64,000 nucleotides of DNA from Candidatus Methanogaster sp. UBA203 (GCA_002503595.1 DASC01000135.1:2596-66595), one strand, 5' to 3'. Counted from the stretch's first letter, positions 1 to 34,945 are shown. Numbers and translations are program-made. The notes: generated by a model not told the origin, from the sequence alone.

Positions 1-190
1 ACACGCCCGGAGGTGATCAAGATGTCGCCTGTGGTGCGGGCGTGCGAGGGCTCGGGGGCGGAGTGGTTTATGGTTCACACGGGGCAGGGGTGTTCGCGTG
101 ATGTGGGTCGGGTGTTCTCTGGGGGCTTGGGCTGCCGGATGCGAGGTATAATCTGGATGTCGTATAATCTGGATGTCGGGGTGGGGGCAG
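1..190 (+). pseudogene. 5' fragment of a UDP-GlcNAc 2-epimerase (WecB-like) gene, copy 1; runs off the window start and is degenerate
   Basis: The translation TRPEVIKMSPVVRACEGSGAEWFMVHTGQ parallels the N-terminus of the better preserved copy at 762. Nt 1-135 are almost identical to 1743-1875. A 16-nt unit gtataatctggatgtc is duplicated in tandem at 146-177. The rest of the enzyme is absent. Confidence 0.7.
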
Positions 191-326
191 GGGGGCATTG
201 GAGTTGTCAAACGATAGTGCCTCTGGCGGCTGGCTGTTATGTTGATGACGTGATAGATAGATTCAGGACGAGTTGTTGCATAAGATGAAGAGGATGGATA
301 GGTGAAAATAGGAGGCGAGAATAAGA

Positions 327-560
327 ATGGAAGACGCCAAAACGATAACGATAAGCCCCAGGATTTATGCGGAATTGAACGCCTTTATGGGTATTCTCAG
401 TGATCGATTGAAGAGGCGCGTCTCGATCGATGACGCGCTCGAAAATTTACTACCACGTGCACATAGAAACAAGCCAAGCGATTTTGCGGGTGCATGGGTA
501 ATGAGCGACGAGGAGGAGGAAGAGATTAAGAAGAGTCTTAAGGAGTTGTGGCGAAGATAA
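327..560 (+). CDS. VapB-like antitoxin (small archaeal type with an acidic C-terminus)
   Basis: 77 aa. The tail FAGAWVMSDEEEEEIKKSLKELW resembles archaeal VapB-type antitoxins. A PIN-toxin remnant starts 26 nt downstream. Confidence 0.5.
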   Translation: MEDAKTITISPRIYAELNAFMGILSDRLKRRVSIDDALENLLPRAHRNKPSDFAGAWVMSDEEEEEIKKSLKELWRR

Positions 561-586
561 CCGCAAGTTTAGAACGCAACGGGAAC

Positions 587-724
587 ATGATAGATATACG
601 GGATCTGCTTATCGCTTCGATCGCTCTGGTTAATAGCTATGGAGTTTTGACAAATAATGTAAGGCATTTTGATAGGGTAAAGCATTTGAGGGTGATTGCT
701 GGCAGAGCAAATGATTATGACTGA
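587..724 (+). pseudogene. C-terminal remnant of a PIN-domain (VapC) toxin
   Basis: This 45-codon ORF is not in the track. MIDIRDLLIASIALVNSYGVLTNNVRHFDRVKHLRVI matches the last third of PIN toxins (D-x-LIA ... T-N-N-x-x-HF-x-RV). The N-terminal part carrying the first acidic residues is missing. Confidence 0.55.
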
Positions 725-761
725 GCAATTCGTTGAGACGTAGATTTAGGGGAGGTTATGG

Positions 762-1028
762 ATGAAGACCTGCGTAATTATTGGCACACGCCCGGAGGTG
801 ATCAAGATGTCACCGGTGGTGAGGGCGTGCGAGCGGCGGGGGCTGGACTGGTTTGTGGTTCATACCGGGCAGCATTACCCGTACAACATGGACCGGGTGT
901 TTTTTGAGCAACTTGGGCTGCCGGATGCGAAGTATAATCTCGATGTTGGGTCCGGGTCAGGGGGTATGGAGCAGACAGGGAAGATGCTTGAAGGGAAAGA
1001 TATTTTAGGTCCGAAAAACACATATTAA
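762..1028 (+). pseudogene. 5' fragment of a WecB-like epimerase gene, copy 2 (best preserved, about 75 codons, then divergence and a stop)
   Basis: MKTCVIIGTRPEVIKMSPVVRACERRGLDWFVVHTGQHYPYNMDRVFFEQLGLPDAKYNLDVGSGSGG is a typical WecB N-terminus. Full enzymes are about 350-380 aa, whereas this ORF stops after 88 codons. Confidence 0.75.
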
Positions 1029-1049
1029 ATTGGAAAAGAAGGGATCAAG

Positions 1050-1307
1050 ATGGAATCCGAAACGAGAAGAGTTATATATCCTGTTATGGCGATCACGCAA
1101 GAACGTCTATCAGATAGAGGTGTGAAAGTATCGCAAAAGGAGTTGATGTATGTGATCACTGAATTCATCGCCAAAAATGAGGAGGAATTACTAAGGATGG
1201 TGCAGGAGAAGAGAAGGAGCTATGATGCGAATTTGAGAAAGTGGTTGAACACCCCTGTTGAGGTCGAGAGAACCGATGCACTAAAGGAGCATGATTTGGT
1301 GGTGTGA
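1050..1307 (+). CDS. Antitoxin partner of the downstream PIN toxin (VapB-like)
   Basis: 85 aa. Its stop overlaps the GTG start of the PIN ORF (GTGA at 1304-1307), which is the classic TA operon layout. Confidence 0.55.
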   Translation: MESETRRVIYPVMAITQERLSDRGVKVSQKELMYVITEFIAKNEEELLRMVQEKRRSYDANLRKWLNTPVEVERTDALKEHDLVV

Positions 1308-1708
1308 TCTTGTTTATCGATAGTGTTGTGTGGATCGGTGCTAAATTAAAACGGGACCAGTGGCATAGAAAGTCAGTTCCGATCATAAGAAAATTCCTCG
1401 ATAAGGAGATTGAAAAGGCATATATTACAGATTATATCGTCTTAGAAACGGTGAATTTTATTTTGAGAAAAGGCAGTTTCGATGCGGCACTGGAGACATT
1501 GAATCTCTTTGAGTACCATGAAAGGATTGAAATCGTAAATATCGATGAAATGTCCTTTGCTCGCGCTTCTGCGATCTTTAAGAGATATCCCGGGTTGTCA
1601 ATCACCGATGCATCAACGGTGGCGGTAATGGAGGATCTGGGAATAGCGCAGATTTACACGTTTGATGAGGGTTTTGATAGGATAGAATGGATTGGGAGGC
1701 TGGAGTGA
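1304..1708 (+). CDS. vapC: PIN-domain ribonuclease toxin (VapC family)
   Basis: 134 aa. N-terminal ILFIDSVV supplies the first conserved Asp. IVLETV and SITDASTVAVMEDLGIAQIYTFDEGFDRI supply the later acidic residues. Confidence 0.75.
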   Translation: MILFIDSVVWIGAKLKRDQWHRKSVPIIRKFLDKEIEKAYITDYIVLETVNFILRKGSFDAALETLNLFEYHERIEIVNIDEMSFARASAIFKRYPGLSITDASTVAVMEDLGIAQIYTFDEGFDRIEWIGRLE

Positions 1709-1712
1709 ATCG

Positions 1713-1904
1713 ATGACGGGTAAGATCTGTATCATTATTGGCACACGCCCGGAGGTGATCAAGATGTCGCCTGTGGTGCGGGCGTGCGAGGGCTCGGGGG
1801 CGGAGTGGTTTATGGTTCATACCGGGCAGAGGTGTTCGCGTGATGTGGGCCGGGTGTTCTCTGGGGGGCTTGGACGACAGGGTTATGAGGACGTTAAGAT
1901 ATGA
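1713..1904 (+). pseudogene. 5' fragment of a WecB-like epimerase gene, copy 3
   Basis: MTGKICIIIGTRPEVIKMSPVVRACEGSGAEWFMVHTGQRCSRDVGRVFSGGLG. It is nearly identical in nucleotides to copy 1. Homology ends near 1875, and its stop overlaps the ATG (1901) of the next gene. Confidence 0.7.
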
Positions 1905-7562: not shown

Positions 7563-7573
7563 TTAACCTATTC

Positions 7574-9019
7574 GTACGTGTTTAGCCGCTCAGCCTCGCC
7601 CTCATCATCTGGAGACTGTTGAATCCCTGCTGTGCCCACGTTGCCAGCACTGTCATGATCCGCTCGTGAATTGACGTCCCTTTTCTATTACGCAGTGTTC
7701 CCACGATCTTCCGCTGGACGACATGCTCAGCGATTTGAGCCCTTTCTGCTCTGTTATTGGTCGACTCCACGCCTGGATGAGTGACAAACGTGAACCAGTA
7801 ATCAAAGCCATTTTCAATCTTGCCGATGAGCTTTTCCACCTTCTCGCTTCCGTATTCTCTCTTGAGCCATCGTTTGAGCGTTGCTTCCGCATTATGTGAC
7901 AGCTTCTCCCGAGTTTCGGGAGGAGGATCATTCTCCAGCGCGTCAATCAGTTTTTCATGGAGTCTCCCCGAGTGCTCTGTGTAAAGGAACCGCCTCCGCA
8001 ATCTTCTCGGTGAGATCCTTTGATTCTCGAAGTAGATGTGCCCAGCAACGCTGGATACGGTTTGTAAATTTGGCGTACGGTTTCCAGCCGTCACACACGA
8101 TCATTCCCTTGAATCTCCTTGTCAGAACCTCTACCAGGACTTTTGTGCCCCGACTCTTCCGAATCACGACAAAAGTCTCTGCGGGGGTGGTGAATGCCCA
8201 TATCCAGTGTTTCTTTCCCTGAACTCCGATTGAAGTTTCGTCCACATGCAGAATCGGAGCGTTACGAACTCGTTCCAGAATTGCGTCATATTCCGATTGA
8301 ACCGCATCAGCAGCACGGCGAGTGAGATCGAGTATCGTAGCAGGACTGATGTCCAATCCATAGTGCCGTATCAGCGCGTTCCGGATCTTCCGGTGTGGCA
8401 GCCTATCTTCATATTTCAGCAGTGCCGCCTGAGCAATCGTGTTGTTACCGAATATACCTTCTTTTGGACAACTCGAATCGGTTGCAACGACTTCTTTCTG
8501 GCAGTGTGGGCAGGTGTAATGTGCAATATTGTATTCGGTGACGATAACAGGCTGTGGTTCCGGAATCTCCTCGATAACCTTCGTTTCCACGCTGAACGGC
8601 TCACCAAGCTCAGTTCCAAAGTACAGGACACCGATCTTTCGTGACCTCCACCTGTCTATCAGGCTTTGCAGGAGGTCTCGTCACACCCTTATGTCCTTTC
8701 TTCTGCCCCGGCTTCTTCCACCGCCTTTATCTGGATCTTTTTTGCGCTTGCCGCCACGCTTCAGACTTGGTGGGGTATGTGCGTTCTCATACATAGCCAG
8801 TTGGCAACGAGCTCCTTTATGCATACCTTAAGCGACTCATTCTCATGCTTAAGTTGGTCAATCACGTCTCGAAGTTGTTTGATGATCTCGTCCTTGTCCA
8901 TCGTCCTCTTAGAAGACTATTACAGTAACAATATAGAAGTTTTGTGGTCGAGGATGGGTTTTAGATCGATCTGGAAGAACAGTGTGATGGGTGGTTATGT
9001 GGGGGAGCTAAACACATAC
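7574..9019 (-). mobile_element. IS66-family insertion sequence (single-ORF, ISBst12-like size), decayed
   Basis: Imperfect terminal inverted repeats are gtacgtgtttagc (7574-7586) and gctaaacacatac (9007-9019). It encloses a broken IS66-type transposase. It is a GC-rich element inside AT-rich flanks. No clear target duplication was found. Confidence 0.65.
7582..8901 (-). pseudogene. IS66-family transposase, disrupted by at least three frame changes
   Basis: The pieces are MDKDEIIKQLRD.. (from 8901), YENAHTPPSLKRGGKRKK..GHKGVTRPPAKPD (another frame), ORF 7955-8590 (CPHCQKE..HVDETS..DGWKPY..QRCWAHLLR) and ORF 7582-8094 (ESTNNRAERA..). Confidence 0.75.
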
Positions 9020-9094
9020 CAGTAAGTTAAATACGACGGAATCCTATTAATTAAAAAGAAATTAGATGGACTTGTAGACGAGTTTGGTGATAAA

Positions 9095-10075: not shown

Positions 10076-10094
10076 TATAAATTCAAAGATAACT

Positions 10095-11345
10095 TCAAAC
10101 CCACCCATTCCTCCACACCATCACCCCCACGTACACGCTCCCAACCACATTCCCCACCACCCACGCATACCCCACCCCAATAACCCCAAATATAGTCATA
10201 AACACATACCCAAGCCCAACCACTAGCCCACAGATCACCCCACTCAGAACCACAATCCCACGCACATCCTTCTGAATCCTCTTGATCGCAAAATAAACAT
10301 AATTCACCCCGATAAACAAACTTGCTACAACCATCACCCGCAGCACCCCCAACCCACCTCCGGCATAATCCTCCCCGATCACTCCAAGCGCTACGCCACC
10401 GCAAACATACAGCACAGCCGCAGCCGGAACCAGCAGCGAAAAGATAACAATCAGCGACTTTACAACGGTTCTTTTCAATGCCGCACCATGGCTGCCCTCA
10501 ACAAAGAGCGATATGCTGATCGCATTCGGTATCATGAAGAGCAGAGACACTACTGCAAACGCGATATAATAATACGCCGCCTGCTCGGCCCCGAGCATGT
10601 TCAGAACCATAATCGGTATTATCATATTCGGAGCCGCCATGAAGATGCCCACAAGATAATTACCGGCAGAGAAATGAAATGCATCGTTCAGAAAGCCACG
10701 ATCAACCACAAGCATAGGTCTGATCCCTAAACTTATTAGAAAAACAACTGCAATCGAAAGCGCAAACAGAAACGATATTCCGACTGCGCTGAAGATGCCG
10801 ATTGCTCCGAGTGTGGTGAGGGGGATTAAGAAGATGACTCTTGAGCCGACGACAATGCTCTGAAAAAACTGAAACTCAGCTTTTCGTATTGCGACAAACG
10901 AGATTCCAGTTAACGCGGTCACAGAACTTGCTGCAAGGAAGATTAAAAAGAGTGATGCGTTCTGCGGCGATTTTAGAAGATCAAGTTCTGGCGAAACTGT
11001 ATCCACACCTGCGATGAATATCGTACCGAGTAGAACCGCGAAAAATGTTGTTACGAGTGCAGATGTACTGAATGTCCTACTCTTATCATTTGTCGGGAAG
11101 AATCTGATAACCGAGAAGTCCAAACCTAATCTGGAGAGTGAGACGAGCAGAGCCATTAAGGAGATGAGCGCAGCTGCGATGCCAAAGTCTTCCTTCAGAT
11201 ATAACTTTGCCGCAAGCATCCAGAAGATGAAGCCGAAGCCTGCGCTTGATATGTGTGTGAGCACGATGAATAGAGAGTTTCTGAGGAGATGGTCATGGAA
11301 GCAGTGGTTCATCTCTGCTCTGGTTTTTGGCATTCTGATTTTCAT
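10095..11345 (-). CDS. Polysaccharide/oligosaccharide flippase (Wzx-like, MOP superfamily)
   Basis: 416 aa, hydrophobic throughout with about 12-14 helices. Its position in the glycan cluster fits a flippase. Confidence 0.7.
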   Translation of the reverse strand: MKIRMPKTRAEMNHCFHDHLLRNSLFIVLTHISSAGFGFIFWMLAAKLYLKEDFGIAAALISLMALLVSLSRLGLDFSVIRFFPTNDKSRTFSTSALVTTFFAVLLGTIFIAGVDTVSPELDLLKSPQNASLFLIFLAASSVTALTGISFVAIRKAEFQFFQSIVVGSRVIFLIPLTTLGAIGIFSAVGISFLFALSIAVVFLISLGIRPMLVVDRGFLNDAFHFSAGNYLVGIFMAAPNMIIPIMVLNMLGAEQAAYYYIAFAVVSLLFMIPNAISISLFVEGSHGAALKRTVVKSLIVIFSLLVPAAAVLYVCGGVALGVIGEDYAGGGLGVLRVMVVASLFIGVNYVYFAIKRIQKDVRGIVVLSGVICGLVVGLGYVFMTIFGVIGVGYAWVVGNVVGSVYVGVMVWRNGWV

Positions 11346-11369
11346 GCAACTCCGTCACACGCACAATTT

Positions 11370-11639
11370 TCACGGCTTCCAAACTATGAGCCACTCAACC
11401 CGCTCAAAATATTTGTCGTTGGTTGTGATGTTTTTGATCCTGTGTTTTTTCATTATTGCGAAATGCATAGCATCATTCGATAACGAACCATATTTTTTAG
11501 AATACTTCAAAGCAATTCCAAATACCTCCTTGGTCATTTCAACAATTTTTAAATTTTCAATCGCGTTAATGTTCAGTACAACATCCCATGCTTTGTTCAG
11601 TTCTCCCATAATTGCCCAATTCTTCTTCAAATACTTCAT
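11370..11639 (-). pseudogene. PIN-domain toxin fragment (C-terminal two thirds)
   Basis: SLSNDAMHFAIMKKHRIKNITTNDKYFERV is the C-terminal PIN signature. The N-terminal Asp-containing strand is missing, and an upstream in-frame stop lies close to the IS1-like element. Confidence 0.45.
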
Positions 11640-11768
11640 TGTACAGTGTGTATTTACCCCTATTAATGTGTTCTAAGAAACTATTGTGTGGTTCAGCATA
11701 TTCCCAGTGATCAAAAATTTGGTAATGTCCTAATCCAAGATAGTTAATTGGAAATAGAAAAATTCGTG

Positions 11769-12850
11769 TCATGTCCACAGGTGATCTGCCAATCCCTCTA
11801 ACATTGCAGGGGAACTTCTTCTTTTGAACCCGTTTATGAAATTCCAATAGAATTGAAACAGTTGGAGCGAACATTTCAGCATCCACCTCCGTTTTGAGAA
11901 ACATTTTGTCTTCCGTACCAACCTACCAATCCTTTCCCTGAGTATCCCGTTGTAGTTCTCGACGTCGGTGGTTTCGTACATGTTCAATATCGTGTGGAAT
12001 TTTTGGATAGAAATTTGCAAAACCACCACTGGCCGCCAGTTCCCTAAACCCAACAATAGTGATTTACCACAACTTATTGAGCAAGTACGTGGTTTCTATA
12101 TCGCCGGGATCCGGGTTACCGTATATTGTCCTTTTCTCCTTGCGGACGACTCTTCCATTCTCCCTGATCTTTACAAGCTGCCCATAATCGATACAGGTAT
12201 CCACATAATAATCCGGTAAAACATAAGTGTAATCGTCGTTTCCATCGGTGAATACCTCCATTTTAGTCTGCGGAGACGGCTGCTCCGTTCTTTCAGATAG
12301 CTTCTCTATCATTCTTCCACAAGTCTCCTGGGTCCATTTCCCAACTGAAAAAGCCACAAAGAAGTATGTGCTTCACTTTATGCAGGTGTAGATCCATGCA
12401 TCACCCTCTTCAGTCCAATTCGGGCTGCCGGGCTCAATATTTTTTTGTTTTTTTGATAAAGCTCCACAGTTCATCGCATTCGAATGGGGTAAGCCCGAGG
12501 GTCTTTATGAGATACTCATTCATCTCTGCCGCATGTTCAGCCATATCCTCCAGCAATCTACCTATCGTGTCCCTATGGTGACCTGTGATCCGCTCGATAC
12601 TCCGTAACCCGTTCTTCTCTACCAGATGCTTGCAAATATTGATTATTTCACTTTCGGGCAGTTGTTTCCGGTATAACGGAGTGCCCTTCGTTTCCATGAA
12701 ATAGGTTTCGCAATGCTTGCAGTAATACCTCTGATGGCCGGTACTCTTGTACTTACCGCTTTTGATAATGTCTTTCCCAGCTTCTTTTCGGTAATAACGA
12801 CACCGGGGGTTCTGACAAACAACATCGATTTTTCCTCTTGGTCGCGCCAT
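11769..12850 (-). pseudogene. IS1-family transposase (InsA/InsB-like), decayed
   Basis: The N-terminal Zn-finger/HTH ORF (CQNPRCRYY..YYCKHCETYF) ends in an A7-C-A7 run (12440-12454), the typical IS1 -1 slip site. The continuation carries an in-frame TGA and further frame breaks. The DDE-region motifs DGNDDY and VENYNGILRERIGRLVRKTKCFSK are present. Confidence 0.65.
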
Positions 12851-12876
12851 GGTGTTCACCAAGAGAATGGTTCCGT

Positions 12877-13971
12877 TGCATACTATAATAGACCTGTTGC
12901 GAAACAACACCCACTACACGAATTATACGCCCCAACCCTCCATACGACTCCCTCGATTTAGCAGCGTTTGAGGTGGTAATTCCACAATCCACAGGATATT
13001 AACATAACTTTATCATCAAACTCCTCTTTTTTGTTGCGAAACTTATCAGAAACTATCCTGAACCGCTTAACACCCCCAATAGCGTGCTCCACGAGGACTC
13101 TGAAACCACTGACAATCCGGTTCCACGCCTTCGCATCGTCGGTCAATTCTTTTCCTTTCGGCTTTTTCTTCGACATCATGACGACCGCATCGGTATAATC
13201 CTTTTCAACGCCAAGAAATCCCAAATCCATCCACGAAACCACATTTCTTGCAAATATTCCATACGGCGGTGGAAATTTCATCCTTGAACATCCGATAATC
13301 ATGCTTTTTACCCTCCATAGTTGGGCTTAAATAGCCAATTCGTCTTTTCTTGTTGGAGATGATTATATTCTTCCGGGTATGCATCTTCTTCTTGCCGGAG
13401 TAGTTTTTCTTCTGCTTCTCGTTGTCTTTTGGTCTTTGGATTGGTCTCTCGGTGCCGTCGATGAACAGATCCCTTACGTCGGGAAATATCGCAAACAACT
13501 CTTCTACAGTCCTTATTTTTCGCTTTGGTAACGTTGTCTCCCTACTGAGCGCTTTCTCCAATGCCAGTGTTAATTTATGGATATTACGGTTTGCATTCGA
13601 TCTGTTAAGATCAAATACGAATCCTAAGATATCAAAAGTTGGATAACACTTGAAATAGAAGAGCGTGAAGAATAACTTCTCCGCGTCACTTTCTAAATTT
13701 CCTATTCTTCCGCCACCAGGCTTCCTTTCTCTACCCCCAAGTTTAACTCCTGTTTCATACCTAATCCACGCTTCATTTTGAAGTTCTTGTCCGAAACTAC
13801 CCGTCGGTTTGTTAAATTCGGATGCAGATAATCCAGTCATGGCTTTCAGCAGTCTATCGTCATTTAACGCTCGATCGAAGTTTAGCATATTTCATGAGAT
13901 ATATCTCACTTAATTTAAAGCTTTTTGGTTGAAGTGGACGCTAATTGGCAACAAGTCTAATAAACTATCGT
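12877..13971 (-). mobile_element. IS5-family (DDE_Tnp_4 / Harbinger-like) insertion sequence with a frameshifted transposase (12958-13888)
   Basis: Imperfect inverted repeats are ataatagacctgttgc (12885-12900) and gcaacaagtctaataa (13948-13963). Transposase motifs seen are LFIDGTERPIQRP, NYSGKKKMHTRKN, MDLGFLGVEKDY and RVLVEHAIGGVKRFRI. One frame change lies near 13205-13302. Confidence 0.6.
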
Positions 13972-13982
13972 AAATTAGGACA

Positions 13983-14426
13983 CTACCAAAAATCTTCGCT
14001 CAAGATCTCAACCAAAAACTGATTTTCCTCTGGAAGCCTGCATCTACGCAGATGCGCGATTGTGGCAAGCGAAACCGTGAACACCGACAGAACAATTAGT
14101 GTCGGTATCAACCGAATCCCAAAAGGCGTGTAATTCAGTGCCAGTCCGAGCAACGGCACAACTGCGATGCTCAACCCAAAACTAAGTGCGATCCGCTCAA
14201 TCCCATCCAGGTCATCCTGCCCCGGAAACAGTGCCGCAATCAACGAATATCCGGGAAGGAAAAGCACCAACAAAAGACCAAGTAAAAGTCTCACTGACGT
14301 TTCGTTCAGTGGTGAGACCAGAACAAACGGTATGCATAAAAACGTGAGTAAGATCACAAGTGCAAGGTCTTTTTGAAAGTTTAGCATAGTCTGCATCTTT
14401 TTTTCACCTTGTTTCATTGGTATCAA
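13983..14426 (-). pseudogene. DUF1616-family membrane protein, N-terminal TM part only (likely truncated by the adjacent IS)
   Basis: LLGLLLVLFLPGYSLIAALFPGQDDLDGIERIALSFGLSIAVVPLLGLALNYTPFGIRL is the DUF1616 signature. At 147 aa it lacks the usual large extracellular domain. The ORF ends 12 nt from the IS5-like terminus. Confidence 0.55.
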
Positions 14427-14599
14427 CGTTGAAGTCGATGATGTATTCGGTTTTGTTTCTTATCGTGATACCTTCTTAATCCTTTGCATGCGCTTCCAAG
14501 TTGCATAGTAAATCTGACGGGGTTGGTCATTGTCGTGGAGCCAAAGAACATTCCAACCACAAAAAACCCGCCCCAGTGTCATTTACCATTTTTACCGTA

Positions 14600-17500
14600 T
14601 CACGGACTGATTTTATACACCAGTGTGTCATACGGATGTAATTCTATAAGTGCGATATACATTTTTCCATCTTCTGCACTCTGTGTAGATGTAATGTTCG
14701 TTACTAGTTCTTTGACTTCCACGCTAGTTCCATCAAAACCAAGTTTTGACAGGCCCACAGATAACACGCCACTTTCTGTCATGGAACTGCGGCTGGCAAC
14801 GGTATAGTATAAACACTCACTTAGATCACCATATCGTTCAAATTTTATATCGGGATTATCGCACGCCGCATACGGTATCGGCTCCCAGCCAGCAGCCGAT
14901 ATCTCTCTGATTATTGGAATGCATTTTTTGAATAGGTCGCGATCTCTTTCGTAGAATGTATCGTTATTCCAATATCGATTGTTTCCGTATATTTCTTCTG
15001 GTGACACAATACCGAAGGTTGGGAACATACCATAGAACATCTGCTCATCCATGTAATTTTCTACCTCATTATGAGTGATTGGGTCATCTCCATATTGTTC
15101 CCAATGTAATAAATTGGAATTTGTTTTTTGATAACTCATTGTGCGACGTAGCGACATATCACTATCACTTCTTTTTATATGCCAGACTTCACCGCCTAAT
15201 ACGTCAATTAGATGTTCATAATAAGAGTATGCGTTCGGGAATATGTTCGCATTGACAAGTTTGTCCATATTGGTCATGTTTTTACGTATCGATGCAAGAT
15301 ATTCATATTGAGATAATGTGCCCAACAACACAGGTTGCTTGGTATTATAACTGAATACTAGTGGATAATCGGTGTATTCCCAATGTTCTCTTCTATAGTT
15401 TTCAATTTCTGGCCAGCACCAATTACTGTGGAGTGAGTCCACGTAAAATCCACTAGATGGATAATCGCTTGCATTATATGTCGATTCAAAACTATGATTT
15501 TCAACTAAATTGATATCACTGTCACTTTCATGCAATTCAACATCATCAAACCAGAATGTGCCATACCCACTATAGATGTTAGCATATACACGTACATACG
15601 CGGTATCCGTGGTTGTTGTGAACGTTGCAGTTTTTTCTGTCCAGTTGGTTGTTCCGAAACCGAAGTCCAAATTTTTCTGTGCTATCCATGTTCCATTGCT
15701 GTCGTACTCTGCTGCACGCACACAAGGAGAATAAGTACCGCCACAGTTCAGTGTCTTTCCCCAAACTGAGAAATTGTATTTTGTCGATGGTGTAACCGAT
15801 ATGTGATCGGTTATTAAACTACCAGACATTACATCAAATGTTCCCAGTATCTCAATTTTGCCTGCGTAATTGCCACTGTGTGCAATGGTATCTATCGAGA
15901 GATTTGAACCAAATGACCAGTGATATGCATAAAAGCCGCTCTCGTTCGATCGATCGTATTCAGCATAACTGATCTCACATCGGTTTGGAGATGGAATGTC
16001 TGGATCGGGATTTTCAGGATAATTCTGTTGCCATGTACCATACTCATGCCAGCGGTAGGGGTCATCCAAATGGTGATTTTTATTCTTATCATACGGTGCG
16101 GAGTTCAACACTGCTTCTGCTGCAAACTTTGTTATTACCACGTCTCTCCACATTCCAATACCGTTGTTGTAATCATCCATCAGTGCTACAATCTTCTCGT
16201 CGTAACTCGGTTCTGTGGAATTATCTCCAAAACTCCGCCACCAACCCCATGGTTCAGTGTATTGCATCGGATATATTCCATGCTGATGATCATAAACACG
16301 TCTTGATATGGGATGATAATGCGAGTCATCAAACGCAAAACCAAAATCACTCGCATTCGGTATATCTGATGTGTCACGCCGCACCCACAACCCCTCCCAC
16401 TCATTCCTCTTCACAAAAAACTCCGGATACAGTTCATAATACTTCTTCGCGACCGCCCGAAACCCCCACTCTGGCCCGTCCACCTTGTACACAATAAACG
16501 TAAAGTTGGCATGTCCTGCCCCAATCTTATCAGTACAGTTCGCAAGCCCGAAGTCATACTCGATCGAATATCCTCCTGCACCAGTATCATACCCGATCCG
16601 GTAGATCCTCGGCACATCCATAGGAACAGCGAGACTCAAGCCCTGCGCATCTTCACCGACAAACGTGAACGAATATGTGTTCTGTGTCCGCATTTCCCCG
16701 ATCTTGTACACATTCTCATACCGCACCCCAGATCCAATCGCCCTGCTCTCCCTGATATAATCGCCCCACTGCCATCCAGTGGCGTCCACAGGCAGAACAT
16801 ATTGCACCTGAATCGCCCGGTCCACGCCTCTCAGATCCAGCACATCGCCATGCACCTCAATATACCGGTCTCTCGGTATGTAATCGAATCTGAATGCAAT
16901 ATCCGAACTGGTCACGTACTGCGTGATGCTACCATCATAGTTCTTCTCAACCGCACTCACAAGCGGGATCTTCCCGGTCCCACACATTCCAAGCGTCACA
17001 TCATCGACCCAGAACGTGCCGTAACTCTCCCAGATATTCGCATACACATAGAGTTTGCTGACATCAGAACTCGTGGTAAAACTGGTTTTCTTCTCCTCCC
17101 AGTCAGAATCCCTACCAAAAACTAAGTTGTGCTGTGTTATCCATCCGCCACTACCGTTAAGCTCCACCACACGGACTGTGGGCGAATAACTCCCATCAAC
17201 ACCGCTACTCTTACCCCGCGCTGAAAAGGTGTACACTGTACCCGGTTTCGCATCTATCAGGTCGGATTTCGGATAGCCGCTTTGCATATCTCCGGTTCCC
17301 GGGACATTGATCCGTATCGATCCCGGGCTATCATGTCCTTCTGACGCATCATAGACCACAGTCCCGGCGCGACTTACAAACGTCCAGTTCAGTGGCACAT
17401 CACCACTCACAGTCTCGAACCCGGGATTTGCAATAAGGTTCTCTGAGATGGTTGAAGATAATTCCCTGAAGGAAAAGCCACCCGGCACGGACAGCATAGG

Positions 17501-18562
17501 CATCTCGACATCATCTATCGATACGCCGCTGACCGCTCCGCCCTCTGCAAGACTAAATTCGAGACCATCATACGCACGCACACTGAGTTCACCAGCATCC
17601 CCCGCCGCCGTCTCGCCCGTCTGATTGACCCCTGTCTCGCTCACATTCCCACCCACATCAACCGTCCGCACACCGATCTCGTAACAACTACCGGAATCAA
17701 GCCCGGTCGCATTGTAGAACGAATCCGGTGTGACTCCCATGTACGTCCCGTTCAGGTGAACCGTCACATAAGCGAATCGTACATCAGCAGGGTTTGTCCA
17801 TGTCCAGTTGATCCACGTCCTGCCCGCGGTATACCCAAGATCACTGATGCCCGGAAGCGGTGCTTCATACACTTCCAGCGCCACATCCTTGACCTGGAAC
17901 GTGCCGCTGCATTCCCATGTGTTCATAGACACATAGAATTCACTGACATTGGGGCTCGTGGTGAAGGTGATCTCCTTTTCCACCCAGCCATAACATCTGC
18001 TGAAACTCAAGTTGTGCTCTGTTATCTTTCTGCCACTACCGTCAACTTCCATCGCGGTGACGAGCGGCTCATAAGTCCCATTAAGATCGCTGCTGATGCC
18101 CCGCGCAGAAAGGATGTATGGTGTATCAGGTTCCGCCACCACCATATAGACGCCGGATGGAGCCACTCCACCCCCGCCCGCGCCGTCACTTCCGTCCACT
18201 GCATCCGGTTCATGCCATGCCGGCTCATGTTTCGGATCTCCGCTCTTTGCGCCGCCGGTTCTGGAAAAGCCTGCTTGTGCCGTGTCAGTGTTATCCGCTC
18301 CTTTGGCACCTTCAGCAGCATCAGAAACCGCACCCCCAGCGCGGCTTGCGGTTACGTTAACCCCGTGACCTGCAGCAAGACCCCCCGACCCTGCAGCAGA
18401 TAACTCGTTATCTGTATGTGAAATCTGTTCGTTGGATGTGAATGCATCCGCAAAAGTTCCGGGTGTTAATGTGAATAGCAAAAGCGATATAGTCGCGATT
18501 GCCAGCAAATACCCGCTGTACTGGTAGTTATATGTGTTTTTTGGAAGTGCAGTGCTATACAT
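14600..18562 (-). CDS. Giant secreted or cell-surface protein: signal anchor, G/A-rich linker, FN3-like module, three CBM4/9-like (galactose-binding-like) repeats and an uncharacterised core
   Basis: The 1320-aa ORF is intact. The N-terminal hydrophobic anchor is YLLAIATISLLLFTL. A repeated module carries GxY(E/S)P.V...E.(D/N)(G/S)(S/N)G..I..(H/K)NL.F......W.EK...FTT and ends in GTF(W/Q)(V/F)(D/K)DV.L. The FN3-like segment is TWINWTWTNP..YEIGVRTVDVGGN. Confidence 0.8.
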   Translation of the reverse strand: MYSTALPKNTYNYQYSGYLLAIATISLLLFTLTPGTFADAFTSNEQISHTDNELSAAGSGGLAAGHGVNVTASRAGGAVSDAAEGAKGADNTDTAQAGFSRTGGAKSGDPKHEPAWHEPDAVDGSDGAGGGGVAPSGVYMVVAEPDTPYILSARGISSDLNGTYEPLVTAMEVDGSGRKITEHNLSFSRCYGWVEKEITFTTSPNVSEFYVSMNTWECSGTFQVKDVALEVYEAPLPGISDLGYTAGRTWINWTWTNPADVRFAYVTVHLNGTYMGVTPDSFYNATGLDSGSCYEIGVRTVDVGGNVSETGVNQTGETAAGDAGELSVRAYDGLEFSLAEGGAVSGVSIDDVEMPMLSVPGGFSFRELSSTISENLIANPGFETVSGDVPLNWTFVSRAGTVVYDASEGHDSPGSIRINVPGTGDMQSGYPKSDLIDAKPGTVYTFSARGKSSGVDGSYSPTVRVVELNGSGGWITQHNLVFGRDSDWEEKKTSFTTSSDVSKLYVYANIWESYGTFWVDDVTLGMCGTGKIPLVSAVEKNYDGSITQYVTSSDIAFRFDYIPRDRYIEVHGDVLDLRGVDRAIQVQYVLPVDATGWQWGDYIRESRAIGSGVRYENVYKIGEMRTQNTYSFTFVGEDAQGLSLAVPMDVPRIYRIGYDTGAGGYSIEYDFGLANCTDKIGAGHANFTFIVYKVDGPEWGFRAVAKKYYELYPEFFVKRNEWEGLWVRRDTSDIPNASDFGFAFDDSHYHPISRRVYDHQHGIYPMQYTEPWGWWRSFGDNSTEPSYDEKIVALMDDYNNGIGMWRDVVITKFAAEAVLNSAPYDKNKNHHLDDPYRWHEYGTWQQNYPENPDPDIPSPNRCEISYAEYDRSNESGFYAYHWSFGSNLSIDTIAHSGNYAGKIEILGTFDVMSGSLITDHISVTPSTKYNFSVWGKTLNCGGTYSPCVRAAEYDSNGTWIAQKNLDFGFGTTNWTEKTATFTTTTDTAYVRVYANIYSGYGTFWFDDVELHESDSDINLVENHSFESTYNASDYPSSGFYVDSLHSNWCWPEIENYRREHWEYTDYPLVFSYNTKQPVLLGTLSQYEYLASIRKNMTNMDKLVNANIFPNAYSYYEHLIDVLGGEVWHIKRSDSDMSLRRTMSYQKTNSNLLHWEQYGDDPITHNEVENYMDEQMFYGMFPTFGIVSPEEIYGNNRYWNNDTFYERDRDLFKKCIPIIREISAAGWEPIPYAACDNPDIKFERYGDLSECLYYTVASRSSMTESGVLSVGLSKLGFDGTSVEVKELVTNITSTQSAEDGKMYIALIELHPYDTLVYKISP

Positions 18563-18981
18563 GTCAGTAGCCTCCGTATCTAATCATCATGAGATGCGGC
18601 AAGGGAAAATGCCCCCACTCCCCCCCACACTTATCTCATGATAATAATGATTATGACATTCATAGTATAAAAAGTTAACGGTCACGCGTCATGTCAGCTA
18701 AAACCCCGTGTCGCGTCAGATAAAGCCCCGACCGTCGTCAGGTAGACGCGTCGCTACCGGTTTTGACGTGCCAGACATCATCCCGATTCAGGTTGTGGCA
18801 GGCAACAGACGCAATCCTGCACAGACACGATCCCGCCGTCTGCCGAGATGGACGATCTGAAAAGAGGCAGCTATCAAGAGCGAACGTGCGGTCAAGCCGC
18901 TGCAAGCGCATCACCTGGATCTGGTGTGTGGTTTGAAGATCAGGGATCGAGGATAAACCTCAAAAAAGCGTAACTACTCAT

Positions 18982-19152
18982 GGGCACTGTCTGAAAAGCC
19001 AGTGATTTATCACCGCGGAATACGAAGTATCGCCGAAGGCCGAACGCGGAGGGCACAGAGTTTCGAGACTGTATAAGTCCTCTGCGTGGCTTTGCGCACT
19101 CTGTGGTAGAATCTAAGGGCGTGGCGATATCACTGGAAAAATCGAGAGTGCC
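18982..19152 (+). repeat. MITE-like repeat, copy A (about 171 bp)
   Basis: It aligns along its length with 61394-61565. Shared elements are atttatcaccgcggaatacgaagtatcgccgaagg, the triple motif ctctgcgtgg-ctttgcgca-ctctgtggt, and the termini ggcactgtc / gagagtgcc. Confidence 0.75.
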
Positions 19153-19168
19153 TGATGCACATAAGAAG

Positions 19169-19306
19169 ATGGATCAGGTTCTCGAAACATTGGAGGTGCT
19201 CATGGATGAAGCGACGTTGAAACGGTTAAAGCGGGGGGAAGAAGAACTAAAAGCAGGTAATTATGTAGATGCCGCGCCAGGAGAGATTGAAGAGATATTA
19301 AGGTGA
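19169..19306 (+). CDS. Small RelB-like antitoxin (45 aa from ATG 19169; the track ORF starts at GTG 19103 inside the repeat)
   Basis: MDQVLETLEVLMDEATLKRLKRGEEELKAGNYV. Its stop lies 2 nt before the RelE-like ATG at 19309. Confidence 0.45.
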   Translation: MDQVLETLEVLMDEATLKRLKRGEEELKAGNYVDAAPGEIEEILR

Positions 19307-19308
19307 GT

Positions 19309-19575
19309 ATGTATAGAGCGCGTTTTTTAAAAACTTTTTTGAGGCAAGAGAAGAAGCTTAATGCAAATACGAAAGAGTGACTTATAAAAGCCGTTAAGGA
19401 AATTTTAAACGATCCCTATTCAGGAATTAATCTAAAAGGGGATTTAAGAGAATATTGGAAGAAAAGAGTTGGAAAGTATCGAATAATATATAAGATAGGT
19501 GAATCAGAAAAGATAGTGATTTTCTTTGACGTGAATTTGAGAAAGAAAGTCTACAATAGGTTAAAAAGGAGATGA
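19309..19575 (+). pseudogene. RelE/ParE-family toxin with an in-frame TGA at codon 24 (19378-19380)
   Basis: MYRARFLKTFLRQEKKLNANTKE*LIKAVKEILNDPYSGINLKGDLREYWKKRVGKYRIIYKIGESEKIVIFFDV shows the RelE/ParE hallmark (W..RVG.YRIIY). It is absent from the ORF track because of the stop. Confidence 0.65.
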
Positions 19576-19595
19576 AACTTCTTTCTTGTGATATT

Positions 19596-19885
19596 TCTTC
19601 AAACCCACCCCTCCTCCCTCCACACCATCACCCCAACGCACACGCACACGCACCCAACCCCATTCGCAACTACCCACGCATATCCAACCCCAACGACCCC
19701 AAACATCGTCATGAACAGATACCCCAATCCAACCAATGACACAAAAATCACCCCGTTCAGAACCACAATCCCCTTAACATCCTTCTGCACCCACTTGATC
19801 GCAAAATAAACATAATTCACCCCGACAAATAAACTTGCAACCACCATCGCCCGCAGCACTTCCACCCCGCCAGCAGCATAATCCG
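19596..19885 (-). pseudogene. Diverged 3' fragment of a second Wzx-type flippase gene
   Basis: VLRAMVVASLFVGVNYVYFAIKWVQKDVKGIVVLNGVI..GVGYAWVV aligns with the C-terminus of the intact flippase (VLRVMVVASLFIGVNYVYFAIKRIQKDVRGIVVLSGVI..GVGYAWVV). Homology stops at a repeat-derived sequence, gcgcactctgcggt. Confidence 0.75.
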
Positions 19886-20072
19886 CGCCCCTTCGCGCAC
19901 TCTGCGGTTATATTCTGTGTTTGGTTACAGTAATGCCTGCCCTTCGGGCATGGCATCGATAGAATCGAATCCTTCTGGGATTCTATTATGCCTCATGTCC
20001 TGGATAGTTCCTGCATAGTGAAGTCCCACGATAGTGGTTTAGGTACCTGAGTAGTTACAAAAAAGCTTAACA

Positions 20073-20144
20073 AGCCTCGGGCGGGAATTGAACCCGCGAC
20101 CTCGTCCTTACCAAGGACGCGCTATACCGCTAAGCCACCGAGGC
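20073..20144 (-). tRNA. tRNA-Thr (anticodon GGU)
   Basis: Hand-folded cloverleaf: acceptor GCCTCGG/CCGAGGC, anticodon stem CGTCC/GGACG with loop TTGGTAA, T-arm GCGGG-TTCAATT-CCCGC, discriminator T. No encoded CCA. Confidence 0.85.
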
Positions 20145-20428
20145 GCAGGTCTCTGATTGCTGCGGATTGATTATGAACATTTCGGTTCGCAGGGGGTGAT
20201 TTTTTGTTATCTTCTGAAATGGGTTTTGGAAAAACCACAGAGAGCACAGAGAAAACAACAACTCTCTGTGCCCTCCGTGTCCTCTGTGGTTAATCTTCTT
20301 TGCCATAATCCATACCCACCCAGAAGAAATTAAAAAGCCACCGCGGGGGCGGGGGTGAGCAGTTACGTGGATCCTGGGATACAGTCATGAGAAAACCATT
20401 AATACCCGCGCAGTAACCATCAGTACAG

Positions 20429-34755: not shown

Positions 34756-34945
34756 CATGAAACGGTATCGGAAAATCCAGTGAAATCACTATATCCTTAA
34801 ATTTTACCGCAGAGCACGCGGAGAACGAGAGAGGCACCAGAAAACCAAAGCGAGGATCGAAACGGTATCGAAACTCTGCGACCTCCGCGTTCTCCGCGGT
34901 GATAAATCACTTGATTTTTAGACAGTGTCCATGAAACGGTATCGG
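34756..34945 (-). repeat. MITE-like repeat, copy C (short variant, inverted), including flanking 16-nt perfect direct repeats
   Basis: catgaaacggtatcgg occurs at 34756-34771 and at 34930-34945. The interior (34772-34929) carries gacactgtctaaaaatcaagtgatttatcaccgcgg (reverse strand) and the ctc(t/c)g(c/t)g triple motif. Confidence 0.7.

What the first reader, a model, noticed from the sequence alone, without database searches (positions are those of the whole stretch)
10095..20144. Two diverged flippase 3' ends bracket about 8 kb of decayed mobile DNA plus a giant surface-protein gene, next to tRNA-Thr
The intact Wzx-like gene ends at 10095. A second, clearly homologous but substitution-rich copy of only its last 90 codons or so lies at 19596-19885 in the same orientation. 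That copy is cut off by a repeat-derived sequence (gcgcactctgcggt) and sits about 190 nt from the 3' end of tRNA-Thr(GGU).

Between the two lie a PIN fragment, IS1- and IS5-family relics, a truncated DUF1616 gene, the 1320-aa CBM-rich ORF, a MITE-like copy and a dead RelBE pair.

Together with the wecB stubs at the other edge, the whole 20-kb glycan locus looks like a replaceable cassette. On this reading it is exchanged by recombination in conserved flanking genes (wecB on one side, wzx on the other), and remnants of earlier alleles accumulate beside a tRNA gene.
Basis: partly seen in the sequence, partly recalled or inferred. Interest (0 to 1): 0.6.

Follow-up and report, generated by a model that had tools for sequence, protein, structure and literature searches.

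The report
Foreign flippase scrap inside a MITE
A 290-base leftover of a sugar-flippase gene from another strain sits with a damaged toxin-antitoxin pair inside a small transposable element that inserted into the terminator of a tRNA gene in a methane-oxidising archaeon, so it is a hitch-hiking relic and not the edge of a swapped gene cassette.

Summary
Window 19599-19889(-) encodes the last ~96 codons of a Wzx-like flippase: 72% aa (E 3e-36) and ~80% nt identical to the intact gene at 10095-11345(-), 183 nt from tRNA-Thr(GGU).

The "bracket" reading does not hold.
- Seven sister Ca. Methanogaster (ANME-2c) MAGs lack window 18970-20058. In six of them the flanking sequences are directly contiguous.
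- That 1,089-bp insert has perfect 11-nt terminal inverted repeats (GTAACTACTCA) and a perfect 8-bp target duplication (AAAAAAGC, the tRNA's oligo-T terminator).
- A 240-bp MITE with the same ends and an 8-bp duplication occurs in L011.
- The insert carries an altered RelB, a RelE/ParE with an in-frame stop, and the wzx fragment.
- The fragment is closer to other alleles (87.5-88.5% aa to P0009/P0007) than to the resident gene (74%), and shows little decay.

The DNA between the two copies is not mostly mobile. CBM-giant, short DUF1616 and wzx lie in the same order on other contigs, and the CBM gene abuts tRNA-Thr in relatives. Only 11346-13982 is IS/PIN debris.

Glycan genes beyond wzx do differ between strains, so a variable cassette is real. 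No tRNA att repeat, integrase or mosaic break in wzx was found.

In passing: toxin-antitoxin modules flanked by gene-end stubs recur in these archaea.

The parts
10095..11345 (-). Intact Wzx-like oligosaccharide flippase gene (416 aa)
   Evidence: ORF. Pfam Polysacc_synt_3 at 24.5 bits, above cut-off. 391 homologues, several named oligosaccharide flippase by their source. Uniform 71-83% nt identity to alleles in L024, L025, L033 and L034, with no mosaic break.
19599..19889 (-). wzx' fragment: the last ~96 codons plus stop of a foreign flippase allele, with no 5' part
   Evidence: 72% aa to the resident gene, E 3e-36. 87.5-88.5% aa to P0009/P0007. 88% nt to L024. dN/dS 0.11-0.26 against relatives, which is like the full-length pairs. 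Fragment-specific changes are only one R-to-W substitution and two in-frame repeat expansions.
18970..20058 (.). 1,089-bp MITE-like non-autonomous element that carries the passengers RelB'/RelE*/wzx'
   Evidence: Absent from L003, L004, L005, L006, L008 and L009, where window 18369-18974 joins 20058-20194 directly. L011 also lacks it. Perfect 11-nt inverted repeats and 8-bp duplication. With 19108-19908 removed, the remaining 288 bp are colinear with the 240-bp MITE at L011 14207-14446.
18962..18969 (.). Left copy of the target-site duplication AAAAAAGC
   Evidence: Direct read. It is a single copy in the sister MAGs.
20059..20066 (.). Right copy of the target-site duplication AAAAAAGC. On the minus strand this is GCTTTTTT, the oligo-T tract starting 7 nt after the tRNA-Thr 3' end.
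   Evidence: Reading the T-run as the tRNA terminator is an inference from general knowledge of archaeal termination.
18970..18980 (+). Left terminal inverted repeat GTAACTACTCA
   Evidence: This pattern occurs in the window only at the two ends of the element.
20048..20058 (-). Right terminal inverted repeat (GTAACTACTCA on the minus strand)
   Evidence: The same ends occur in L011 (14208 and 14445) and in L003 1-111.
18984..19152 (+). Second small repeat ('B-type') that replaces the first ~13 codons of RelB
   Evidence: 87% identical to window 61396-61528, and similar to 34862-34934(-). The copy at 61394-61562 has 9-nt inverted ends GACACTGTC and a 9-bp direct repeat CGTGATCGC.
19169..19306 (+). 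RelB-like antitoxin remainder. An in-frame GTG at 19103 gives a 67-aa chimeric ORF.
   Evidence: 73.9-78.3% aa to RelB in L029-L032, which carry ~13 more N-terminal codons. No Pfam hit.
19309..19575 (+). RelE/ParE-like toxin pseudogene (in-frame TGA at 19378-19380)
   Evidence: Pfam ParE_toxin 35.1 bits, E 2e-8, with the stop replaced. 76-85% aa to intact homologues in L029-L032.
19895..19908 (+). GCGCACTCTGCGGT, the motif at the wzx'/MITE junction. A second copy, GCGCACTCTGTGGT, lies at 19094-19107.
   Evidence: 4 copies in the window against 0.36 expected. The same motif is internal to the L011 MITE.
20073..20144 (-). tRNA-Thr(GGU)
   Evidence: ARAGORN. Rfam tRNA 69.4 bits. Conserved next to the HAD gene in L003-L006, L008, L009 and L011.
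20195..20341 (.). Separate 147-bp MITE-like insertion between tRNA-Thr and the HAD gene
   Evidence: Absent in L003-L006. Copies in L009 at 3297-3446 and 9746-9918. Ends GGTGATTTTTT / AAAAAGCCACC and a ~7-nt imperfect flanking repeat.
14600..18562 (-). 1320-aa CBM_4_9 surface-protein gene. It is a conserved neighbour of tRNA-Thr, not mobile cargo.
   Evidence: Pfam. Its 5' part is 78-85% aa identical, in the same position, in L005 and L009. Its C-terminal half is 64-65% identical upstream of DUF1616-wzx in L024 and L033.
13983..14426 (-). Short-form DUF1616 gene (147 aa)
   Evidence: Pfam E 1e-42 over profile positions 1-130 of 307. The 142-aa counterpart directly precedes wzx in L024.
11346..13982 (.). 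2.6-kb block of inserted debris between DUF1616 and wzx: PIN fragment, IS1 relics, split DDE_Tnp_4 transposase
   Evidence: In L024 the DUF1616 stop overlaps the wzx start, so this block is an insertion.
1..1874 (+). Three wecB 5' heads (1-195, 762-1028, 1722-1874) alternating with VapB (327-560) and antitoxin+PIN (1050-1708) modules
   Evidence: Heads A and C are 97% identical. Head B is 74% identical to them, so it comes from a different allele.
7563..9030 (-). IS66-family relic with 24-nt inverted ends (TTAACCTATTCG... / TTAACTTACTGG...)
   Evidence: Pfam DDE_Tnp_IS66 on two split ORFs. Inverted repeat found. Its ends resemble the MITE ends only loosely.

Best explanation
The short flippase 3' end is a non-functional passenger.

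In some donor locus, a wzx allele of the P0009/P0007 type lay tail-to-tail with a RelBE toxin-antitoxin module. A piece of that junction became enclosed between the ends of a small non-autonomous transposable element. The piece holds most of RelB, RelE, and the last 96 codons of wzx. The element is MITE-like, with IS66-type features: ends starting GTAAC and an 8-bp duplication.

The 1,089-bp unit now sits in the oligo-T terminator 7 nt beyond the 3' end of tRNA-Thr. It duplicated AAAAAAGC on insertion, so the tRNA keeps a T-run.

- **Shown:** the insertion, its ends, the empty sites in relatives, the foreign origin of the fragment, and the damage to RelE.
- **Inferred:** that the whole unit transposed in one piece. 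This is my preferred version, at roughly even odds with a plain MITE inserting first and being patched later by recombination with donor DNA. Also inferred: that an IS66-family transposase moved it.

The resident wzx, the CBM giant gene and DUF1616 belong to a conserved gene order at the edge of a strain-variable Wzx-type surface-glycan locus. They have no direct mechanistic link to the fragment.
For: **Empty site.** In six sister MAGs, window 18974 joins 20058 directly. L011 also lacks the insert.

**Transposon hallmarks.** These sit exactly at the indel boundaries.
- 11/11 inverted repeat and 8/8 duplication.
- The inverted-repeat pattern occurs in the window only at these two sites.
- A bona fide 240-bp family member in L011 has the same ends and its own 8-bp duplication, GATTTTCT.
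- Another copy truncates the CBM gene region in L003.

**IS66 resemblance.** The IS66 family has inverted repeats starting GTAAGCG and 8-bp direct repeats (PMC11946415; PMC3281130).

**Foreign allele.**
- 87.5-88.5% aa to P0009/P0007 against 74% to the resident gene.
- 88% against 77-80% at nucleotide level.
- dN/dS is like that of functional pairs, and fragment-specific damage is minimal.

**RelBE and the wzx tail belong together.** Homologous RelBE modules in L029 and L030 also carry the last ~35 nt of a wzx gene, tail-to-tail.

**Conserved intervening genes.** Their order and position recur elsewhere.
Against: - No second copy of the same composite at another site was found. The RelE-anchored metagenome scan gave 4 loci without MITE ends, and viral contigs gave nothing. 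Transposition of the unit as a whole is therefore unproven.
- The wzx'/MITE joint lies in the MITE interior, at a 14-nt motif duplicated at 19094 and 19895, not at a MITE terminus. At least one illegitimate or microhomology event is needed, and its site and timing are unknown.
- The left half of the element is a different ('B-type') repeat, and its relation to the MITE is unresolved.
- The link to IS66 rests on the form of the ends and the duplication length. The resident IS66 relic has only loosely similar ends.
- All comparators are metagenome assemblies.
Confidence: 0.7

Rival explanations
1. First reader's model. The glycan locus is a cassette exchanged by homologous recombination in wecB and wzx. 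The fragment is the remnant of an earlier resident wzx allele, left in place beside tRNA-Thr, and it brackets mobile DNA together with the current wzx.
For: - The fragment is a different allele.
- Glycan gene content beyond wzx differs among the window, L024 and L033, with wecB heads at the far edge.
- The region left of tRNA-Thr differs among sister MAGs.
- Genuine wzx 3' stubs, not cut by a contig end, occur in L026, L027, L028, L037 and L038.
Against: - The fragment lies inside an insertion bounded by inverted repeats and a target duplication, with intact empty sites in seven relatives.
- It is separated from the cassette by CBM-giant and DUF1616, which are syntenic with wzx elsewhere.
- The order 3' stub, then other genes, then the intact gene (read along the gene's strand) is not produced by crossover or Campbell insertion within wzx.
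- The resident wzx shows no mosaic break.
- Conservative homologous exchange leaves no stubs.
Confidence: 0.1
2. A plain MITE inserted at the tRNA-Thr terminator first. Later the RelB'-RelE-wzx' segment was copied into it from donor DNA, by recombination anchored in the shared repeat on the left and by microhomology (GCGCACTCTGYGGT) on the right.
For: - The passenger is flanked by a 13/14 direct repeat of a motif native to the MITE family.
- The left boundary is a repeat that has other copies in this genome.
- No other copy of the composite was found.
Against: - No relative shows the plain MITE at this site. All seven have the empty site.
- It needs the same number of events as whole-unit transposition.
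- It cannot be separated from the preferred version with the data at hand.
Confidence: 0.3
3. The ~10-20 kb left of tRNA-Thr is an integrase-type genomic island that integrated into the tRNA 3' end. The fragment marks its edge.
For: - Position next to a tRNA 3' end.
- Variable content in relatives.
- Transposase debris and toxin-antitoxin genes.
Against: - No repeat of any part of the tRNA was found elsewhere in the 64-kb window beyond 10-nt chance matches.
- No integrase domain was found among the ORFs tested across 1-26766, which span the interval.
- The tRNA-proximal ~600 nt (CBM head and its upstream region) are conserved in relatives. Variability therefore starts inside the CBM gene, not at the tRNA.
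Confidence: 0.03
4. The fragment is a local duplication of the resident wzx 3' end that diverged by neutral decay.
For: Same orientation, and 80% nt identity.
Against: - It is closer to alleles on other contigs than to the resident gene.
- The substitution pattern is that of purifying selection (dN/dS 0.11-0.32), and the frame is open.
- It is linked to a RelBE module that carries a wzx tail on unrelated contigs.
Confidence: 0.02

Closest known systems
MITEs and mobile insertion cassettes (non-autonomous elements bounded by IS-type inverted repeats, some carrying passenger genes, e.g. MIC231 of Bacillus cereus; from my own knowledge), here of IS66 type
   Same: - Short inverted ends, fixed-length target duplication, and no transposase.
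- A short 240-bp relative with the same ends.
- Passenger DNA between the ends.
- Ends beginning GTAA and an 8-bp duplication, as described for IS66.
   Different: - The passengers are dead or partial genes, not a functional cargo.
- The host is archaeal (ANME-2c).
- No matching autonomous IS with the same ends was found.
- Movement of the loaded element has not been shown.
Pack-MULEs / Pack-MITEs of plants (transposons that capture host gene fragments; from my own knowledge)
   Same: A fragment of a host gene sits between transposon ends and is carried to a new site.
   Different: - Different transposon superfamilies and a different domain of life.
- Only one instance is seen here.
- The capture mechanism is unknown.
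Variable O-antigen / capsule (Wzx/Wzy-type) gene clusters of bacteria, with IS elements and remnant genes at their borders (from my own knowledge)
   Same: - A flippase, glycosyltransferases, sugar-modifying enzymes and a large membrane protein in one locus.
- Gene content differs between strains.
- IS relics and gene remnants lie at the edges.
   Different: - Archaeal locus, linked to a giant CBM protein and DUF1616.
- wzx itself is 70-77% diverged between strains, so it is not a conserved flank.
- The remnant studied here did not arise in place.
Prophages e14 and 21 in the E. coli icd gene, which bring a replacement 3' end and leave the old 3' end as a stub (from my own knowledge)
   Same: An intact gene plus a diverged copy of only its last ~50-100 codons, in the same orientation, with mobile DNA nearby.
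   Different: - The order is wrong. There the stub lies downstream of the intact gene, across the element. Here it lies upstream.
- There is no integrase, and the stub sits inside a transposon.
Integron cassette arrays, and orphan toxin-immunity arrays downstream of rhs/cdiA (comparison for the toxin-antitoxin plus stub arrays seen in passing; from my own knowledge)
   Same: Small modules stacked at one site and separated by repeated boundary sequences. In rhs/cdi arrays the displaced modules keep a piece of the conserved gene.
   Different: - No integrase or attC-like family was identified.
- The repeated boundaries are heads and tails of ordinary neighbouring genes (wzx tail, FrhB-like head, wecB head, DUF2099 head).

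Membership tests
MITE / non-autonomous IS derivative | Terminal inverted repeats at both ends | tested here: met
   GTAACTACTCA at 18970-18980(+) and 20048-20058(-), 11/11. These are the only two such sites in the window.
MITE / non-autonomous IS derivative | Target-site duplication of fixed length flanking the element | tested here: met
   AAAAAAGC on both sides, single copy in the sister MAGs. The L011 copy has the 8-bp duplication GATTTTCT.
MITE / non-autonomous IS derivative | Empty site in related genomes | tested here: met
   L003, L004, L005, L006, L008 and L009 are contiguous across the site. L011 starts its homology at 20059.
MITE / non-autonomous IS derivative | No transposase gene; several copies in genomes | tested here: inconclusive
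   The 1,089 bp hold no transposase. Family members were seen in L011 (complete), L003 and L017 (partial). Only one copy with these ends lies in the 64-kb window, and whole genomes were not surveyed.
IS66 family (as the source of the ends) | Inverted repeats beginning GTAA(GCG) and 8-bp direct repeats | tested here: met
   The ends start GTAACTAC and the duplication is 8 bp. The family description comes from PMC11946415 and PMC3281130.
IS66 family (as the source of the ends) | A cognate autonomous IS66 element with matching ends | tested here: inconclusive
   The IS66 relic at 7563-9030 has the ends TTAACCTATTCG / TTAACTTACTGG, which are only loosely similar.
Passenger-carrying cassette that transposes as a unit (MIC / Pack-MITE-like) | The same loaded element at two or more sites with different target duplications | tested here: not met
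   No second copy was found in the loci held, in a RelE-anchored metagenome scan (4 loci, no MITE ends) or in viral contigs. The search was not exhaustive.
tRNA-targeting integrative island | Direct repeat of the tRNA 3' end at the far boundary | tested here: not met
   blastn-short of the tRNA against the whole window found only the gene itself and two 10-nt chance hits.
tRNA-targeting integrative island | Tyrosine or serine recombinase gene | tested here: not met
   None was found among the ORFs tested across 1-26766 with Pfam or NCBIfam.
Wzx / MOP-type oligosaccharide flippase (resident gene and source of the fragment) | Match to flippase family profiles over the full length | tested here: met
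   Polysacc_synt_3 at 24.5 bits (cut-off 23). Polysacc_synt at 26.4 bits, just below its 28.2-bit cut-off. Homologues carry PF01943 and flippase names from their sources. No NCBIfam hit. Transport activity cannot be tested here.
Type II RelBE/ParDE toxin-antitoxin module | Adjacent small antitoxin and RelE/ParE-fold toxin genes, both intact | tested here: not met
   The toxin frame matches ParE_toxin (35.1 bits) only when the in-frame TGA at 19378-19380 is replaced. The antitoxin lacks ~13 N-terminal codons compared with L029-L032. It is a decayed member.
Gene-end replacement by an integrating element (e14/icd type) | Order intact gene, then element, then old 3' stub along the gene's direction | tested here: not met
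   Along the minus strand the stub (19889 to 19599) precedes the intact gene (11345 to 10095).

The most novel reading that the evidence does not exclude
In ANME-2 and Syntrophoarchaeum, toxin-antitoxin modules may travel together with a short 'anchor' copied from the end of the gene they last sat beside: a wzx tail, an FrhB-like head, a wecB head or a DUF2099 head. They would then re-insert by host recombination through that anchor, that is, homology-facilitated illegitimate or Campbell-type recombination without a dedicated recombinase. This would build arrays of cassettes separated by gene-end stubs at the borders of surface-glycan loci. On this reading, the RelBE-wzx' unit studied here is one such cassette that landed in a MITE.
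Probability: 0.25. Interest if true: 0.6.

Novelty: new member of a known kind. Interest (0 to 1): 0.35.

Why it matters
**For this locus.** The analysis corrects the map. The giant CBM protein, DUF1616 and wzx form a conserved unit at the edge of a strain-variable surface-glycan locus in an uncultured methane-oxidising archaeon. The second flippase end is transposon-borne debris, not a cassette boundary. This affects how strain-level cell-surface variation in ANME-2c is read from metagenomes. Many MAG contigs break exactly here.

**More generally.** It documents an IS66-like MITE family in ANME-2c that can enclose foreign gene pieces and that inserts into a tRNA terminator without destroying it.

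**The side observation.** Toxin-antitoxin modules are repeatedly flanked by duplicated heads or tails of neighbouring genes, in two archaeal groups. If this is general, it would point to a recombinase-independent way for such modules to spread, and it would mark recombination hot spots.

Tried and rejected
- **tRNA att repeat.** I searched the whole window for repeats of the tRNA-Thr sequence. Only 10-nt chance hits appeared, so the tRNA-integrase island was rejected.
- **Integrase.** Pfam and NCBIfam runs on the ORFs tested across 1-26766 found only IS1, DDE_Tnp_4, IS66 and PIN pieces.
- **Mosaic structure in the resident wzx.** A sliding-window identity against four alleles was flat at 71-83%.
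- **Other copies of the loaded element.**
  - blastn against all loci held.
  - A RelE-anchored scan of metagenome contigs, which gave 4 RelBE loci, none with MITE ends or a long wzx piece.
  - Viral contigs searched with the fragment peptide and with the MITE end, both empty.
- **Rfam on 9000-21000.** Only the tRNA was found.
- **Short wzx-tail ORFs in the protein database.** At least one (P0125, L036) is simply cut by a contig end. The count of 32 therefore overstates the number of true stubs. Because the query was a C-terminal piece, the search says nothing about whether 3' ends are kept more often than 5' ends.
- **The 'B-type' repeat.** I could not work out how the repeat at 18984-19152 relates to the MITE proper, nor whether the 14-nt motif is a recombination site or only shared ancestry.

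Full report
**Organism and setting**

The HAD-hydrolase gene next to the tRNA has 88-94% identical orthologues in MAGs named Candidatus Methanogaster, ANME-2 cluster or Methanosarcinales. The window therefore comes from an ANME-2c methane-oxidising archaeon. It matches an ENA metagenome contig of 65.7 kb (L001). Proteins from this stretch also lie on other long contigs, so the arrangement was assembled more than once:
- The HAD protein is on three contigs of 50-200 kb.
- The Wzx protein is on two contigs, the longest 67.5 kb.

**Checking the observation**

- The intact Wzx-like gene is 10095-11345(-), 416 aa.
- The stretch 19599-19889(-) reads through, without a stop, as the last ~96 residues of such a protein.
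  - It is 72% identical to the resident gene, E 3e-36.
  - It is ~80% identical at nucleotide level, with two in-frame insertions.
- tRNA-Thr(GGU) is at 20073-20144(-), 183 nt from the fragment.
- Pfam and NCBIfam confirm the features in between:
  - a PIN fragment;
  - IS1 relics;
  - a split DDE_Tnp_4 transposase;
  - DUF1616;
  - the 1320-aa CBM_4_9 protein;
  - a ParE/RelE-like frame with an in-frame TGA.
- Pfam also confirms the glycan genes and the wecB heads to the left.

**What relatives show at the tRNA**

Loci were anchored on the HAD gene and fetched from one genome per species.
- In L003, L004, L005, L006, L008 and L009, window 18369-18974 (the CBM gene head and its upstream region) runs straight into window 20058-20194 (the tRNA).
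- L011 also lacks the intervening DNA.
- Window 18970-20058 is therefore an insertion of 1,089 bp.
- Its boundaries carry a perfect 11-nt inverted repeat, GTAACTACTCA / TGAGTAGTTAC, and a perfect 8-bp direct repeat, AAAAAAGC. The relatives have that 8-mer once.
- The inverted-repeat pattern occurs in the 64-kb window only at these two positions.
- A complete 240-bp element with the same ends and its own 8-bp duplication (GATTTTCT) lies at L011 14207-14446.
- Another copy ends the L003 contig, just beyond a truncated CBM head.
- If 19108-19908 is removed from the window's element, the remaining 288 bp align end to end with the L011 element.
- Ends starting GTAA and 8-bp duplications are the published signature of the IS66 family (PMC11946415, PMC3281130). 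An IS66 relic lies at 7563-9030, though its ends are only loosely similar.
- On the tRNA's strand the target reads GCTTTTTT and starts 7 nt after the tRNA 3' end. The element therefore inserted into what looks like the tRNA's oligo-T terminator, and the duplication leaves a T-run in place (the terminator role is inferred).

**What is inside the element**

From left to right:
- A second small repeat, 18984-19152, with other copies at 61394-61562 and near 34.9 kb.
- A RelB-like gene lacking ~13 N-terminal codons compared with its homologues.
- A RelE/ParE-like gene with a stop at 19378-19380.
- The wzx fragment, tail-to-tail with RelE.
- The right half of the MITE, beginning at the motif GCGCACTCTGCGGT. 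That motif also occurs at 19094-19107, at the left boundary of the removable passenger segment (19108-19908).

Four metagenome contigs carry RelBE modules 76-85% identical to this one. Their homology to the window runs from 19153 to 19611 at most. In L029 and L030 it includes the last ~35 nt of a wzx gene in the same tail-to-tail position. RelBE and a wzx tail therefore belonged together before the present truncation.

**Where the fragment came from**

- The 120 best homologues of the resident protein were compared with the fragment. The C-termini of P0009 and P0007 match the fragment at 87.5-88.5%. The resident gene matches at only 74%.
- At DNA level the fragment is 88% identical to the P0009 gene (L024). 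The resident gene is 77% identical to L024.
- dN/dS between the fragment and its nearest relatives is 0.11-0.26, the same range as between full-length genes.
- The fragment's own changes are one R-to-W substitution and two in-frame expansions of short repeats.
- It is therefore a recently truncated piece of a functional, foreign allele. It is not an old local duplicate.

**What lies between the two copies**

- On the P0009 contig (L024) the order is CBM-giant C-terminus (64% identical), short DUF1616 (142 aa, its stop overlapping the next start), then wzx. L033 shows the same order.
- In L005 and L009 the CBM gene's 5' part sits next to tRNA-Thr, exactly as in the window.
- The giant gene and DUF1616 are therefore conserved neighbours of wzx and of the tRNA.
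- Only 11346-13982 (PIN fragment, IS1 and DDE_Tnp_4 relics) is inserted debris.
- DUF1616 is not truncated by that debris.

**Is the glycan locus a variable cassette?**

In part, yes. The genes beyond wzx differ between contigs:
- Window: FkbM methyltransferase, an IS66 relic, DUF6541, GT4, GT2, an epimerase and wecB heads.
- L024 and L025: an FrhB-like protein and a pyruvyl transferase, with a GT4 also seen in L024.
- L033: DUF2206, a radical-SAM enzyme, GT4, Alg13/14-like genes, two wecB heads around an inserted gene, and GT2.

Among sister species the DNA left of the CBM head also differs:
- L009 has a CBM remnant followed by MarC, Cbf5, CGI-121 and tRNA-Pro.
- L004 and L006 have DUF763, a GHMP kinase and an ABC transporter.

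However, wzx itself is 70-77% diverged between these loci and shows no mosaic break. No tRNA repeat or integrase was found. The fragment's position and order do not fit a crossover within wzx.

**Most likely history**

1. Shown: a MITE-family element carrying a piece of a foreign RelBE/wzx junction is inserted in the tRNA-Thr terminator, and it is absent from relatives.
2. Inferred: the piece was enclosed between MITE ends by at least one illegitimate joint. Either the loaded unit then transposed here, or a plain MITE landed here and was later patched from donor DNA. The two versions need the same number of events, and I could not separate them. No second copy of the loaded unit was found.
3. 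Inferred: the fragment has no function. An 88-codon ORF remains open, but RelE is dead and there is no sign that the fragment is conserved as such.

**Seen in passing**

- A search with the fragment returned 32 short ORFs that are wzx C-termini. Some are contig-end artefacts (L036). Others are real.
  - L026 has a stub beginning at residue 282.
  - L037 and L038 have an 88-aa tail where L034 and L035 have the full gene.
- In L027 and in Ca. Syntrophoarchaeum caldarius (L028), wzx tails and heads of the FrhB-like downstream gene alternate with toxin-antitoxin modules.
  - The modules are PIN_12, UPF0175-DUF3368, AF2212-PIN and MazE-PIN.
  - In L028 the ~40-nt FrhB head follows four different toxin genes.
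  - In L028 the ~50-nt wzx tail occurs three times.
- In L029 the RelBE insert is flanked by a 149-nt direct repeat (94% identical) of the DUF2099 gene head.
- The window's left edge shows the same design. wecB heads A and C are 97% identical, and head B is a foreign one at 74%. They alternate with VapB and PIN modules.
- This recurring "toxin-antitoxin module plus gene-end stub" pattern is the most interesting lead. I have not tested it against controls.

**Verdict**

It is wrong about bracketing, in-place remnants and the role of the tRNA. The feature is a new example of a known kind: a MITE or mobile cassette enclosing gene debris, beside a variable surface-glycan locus.

Noticed in passing
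L027 1-4515; L028 4700-11500 (Ca. Syntrophoarchaeum caldarius LYOS01000005): Arrays of toxin-antitoxin modules (PIN_12, UPF0175-DUF3368, AF2212-PIN, MazE-PIN). They are separated by repeated wzx tails (~50-400 nt) and heads of the FrhB-like gene that normally follows wzx. A hairpin repeat, TTATGAGGCGTAAAGCACGCCTCA, also recurs. In L028 the FrhB head follows four different toxin genes.
   Followed up: partly
window 1-1874: Three wecB 5' heads alternate with VapB (327-560) and antitoxin+PIN (1050-1708) modules. Heads at 1-125 and 1743-1867 are 97% identical, while the middle head is only 74% identical and so comes from a different allele. No full-length wecB follows. L033 likewise has two wecB heads around an inserted SLFN_AlbA_2 gene.
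   Followed up: partly
L029 1122-2551: A RelBE module 85% identical to the window's one, with a ~35-nt wzx tail, is inserted upstream of a DUF2099 gene. It is flanked by 149-nt direct repeats (94% identical) made of the DUF2099 head.
   Followed up: partly
window 20195-20341: A separate 147-bp MITE-like insertion between tRNA-Thr and the HAD gene. It is absent from L003-L006 and has copies in L009. Its ends are GGTGATTTTTT / AAAAAGCCACC, with a ~7-nt imperfect flanking repeat. The Logan contig L002 breaks inside it.
   Followed up: partly
window 61394-61562 and 34780-34940(-): Further copies of the small repeat that forms the left part of the element. The 61-kb copy has 9-nt inverted ends GACACTGTC and a 9-bp flanking direct repeat CGTGATCGC, so it looks like an independent MITE. 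It shares the internal motif GCGCACTCTGCGGT with the GTAAC-ended family.
   Followed up: partly
L003 401-583, L004 9172-9380, L006 4342-4532, L009 7797-9258: Every sister MAG examined except L011 keeps at least part of the first ~53-65 codons of the CBM giant gene next to tRNA-Thr. Beyond that point they differ: L009 has MarC/Cbf5, L004 and L006 have DUF763/GHMP kinase, and L003 has another gene plus a MITE. The variable region therefore starts inside the CBM gene, not at the tRNA.
   Followed up: partly
window 16981-18136: The CBM giant gene contains an internal 271-nt repeat at 885-nt spacing (70% identical). L005 lacks residues ~375-528, so the number of CBM repeats varies between species.
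   Followed up: no
L027 1393-1444 and 4266-4317; proteins P0136, P0137: A ~52-nt palindromic insert (GAGAGGGGCTGCCGCCCCCTCT core) replaces part of wzx (around residues 300-345) in several stubs from different samples.
   Followed up: no
L037 7212-8453: A group II intron reverse transcriptase gene lies just downstream of an 88-aa wzx tail. In L034 and L035 the same site holds a full-length wzx.
   Followed up: no
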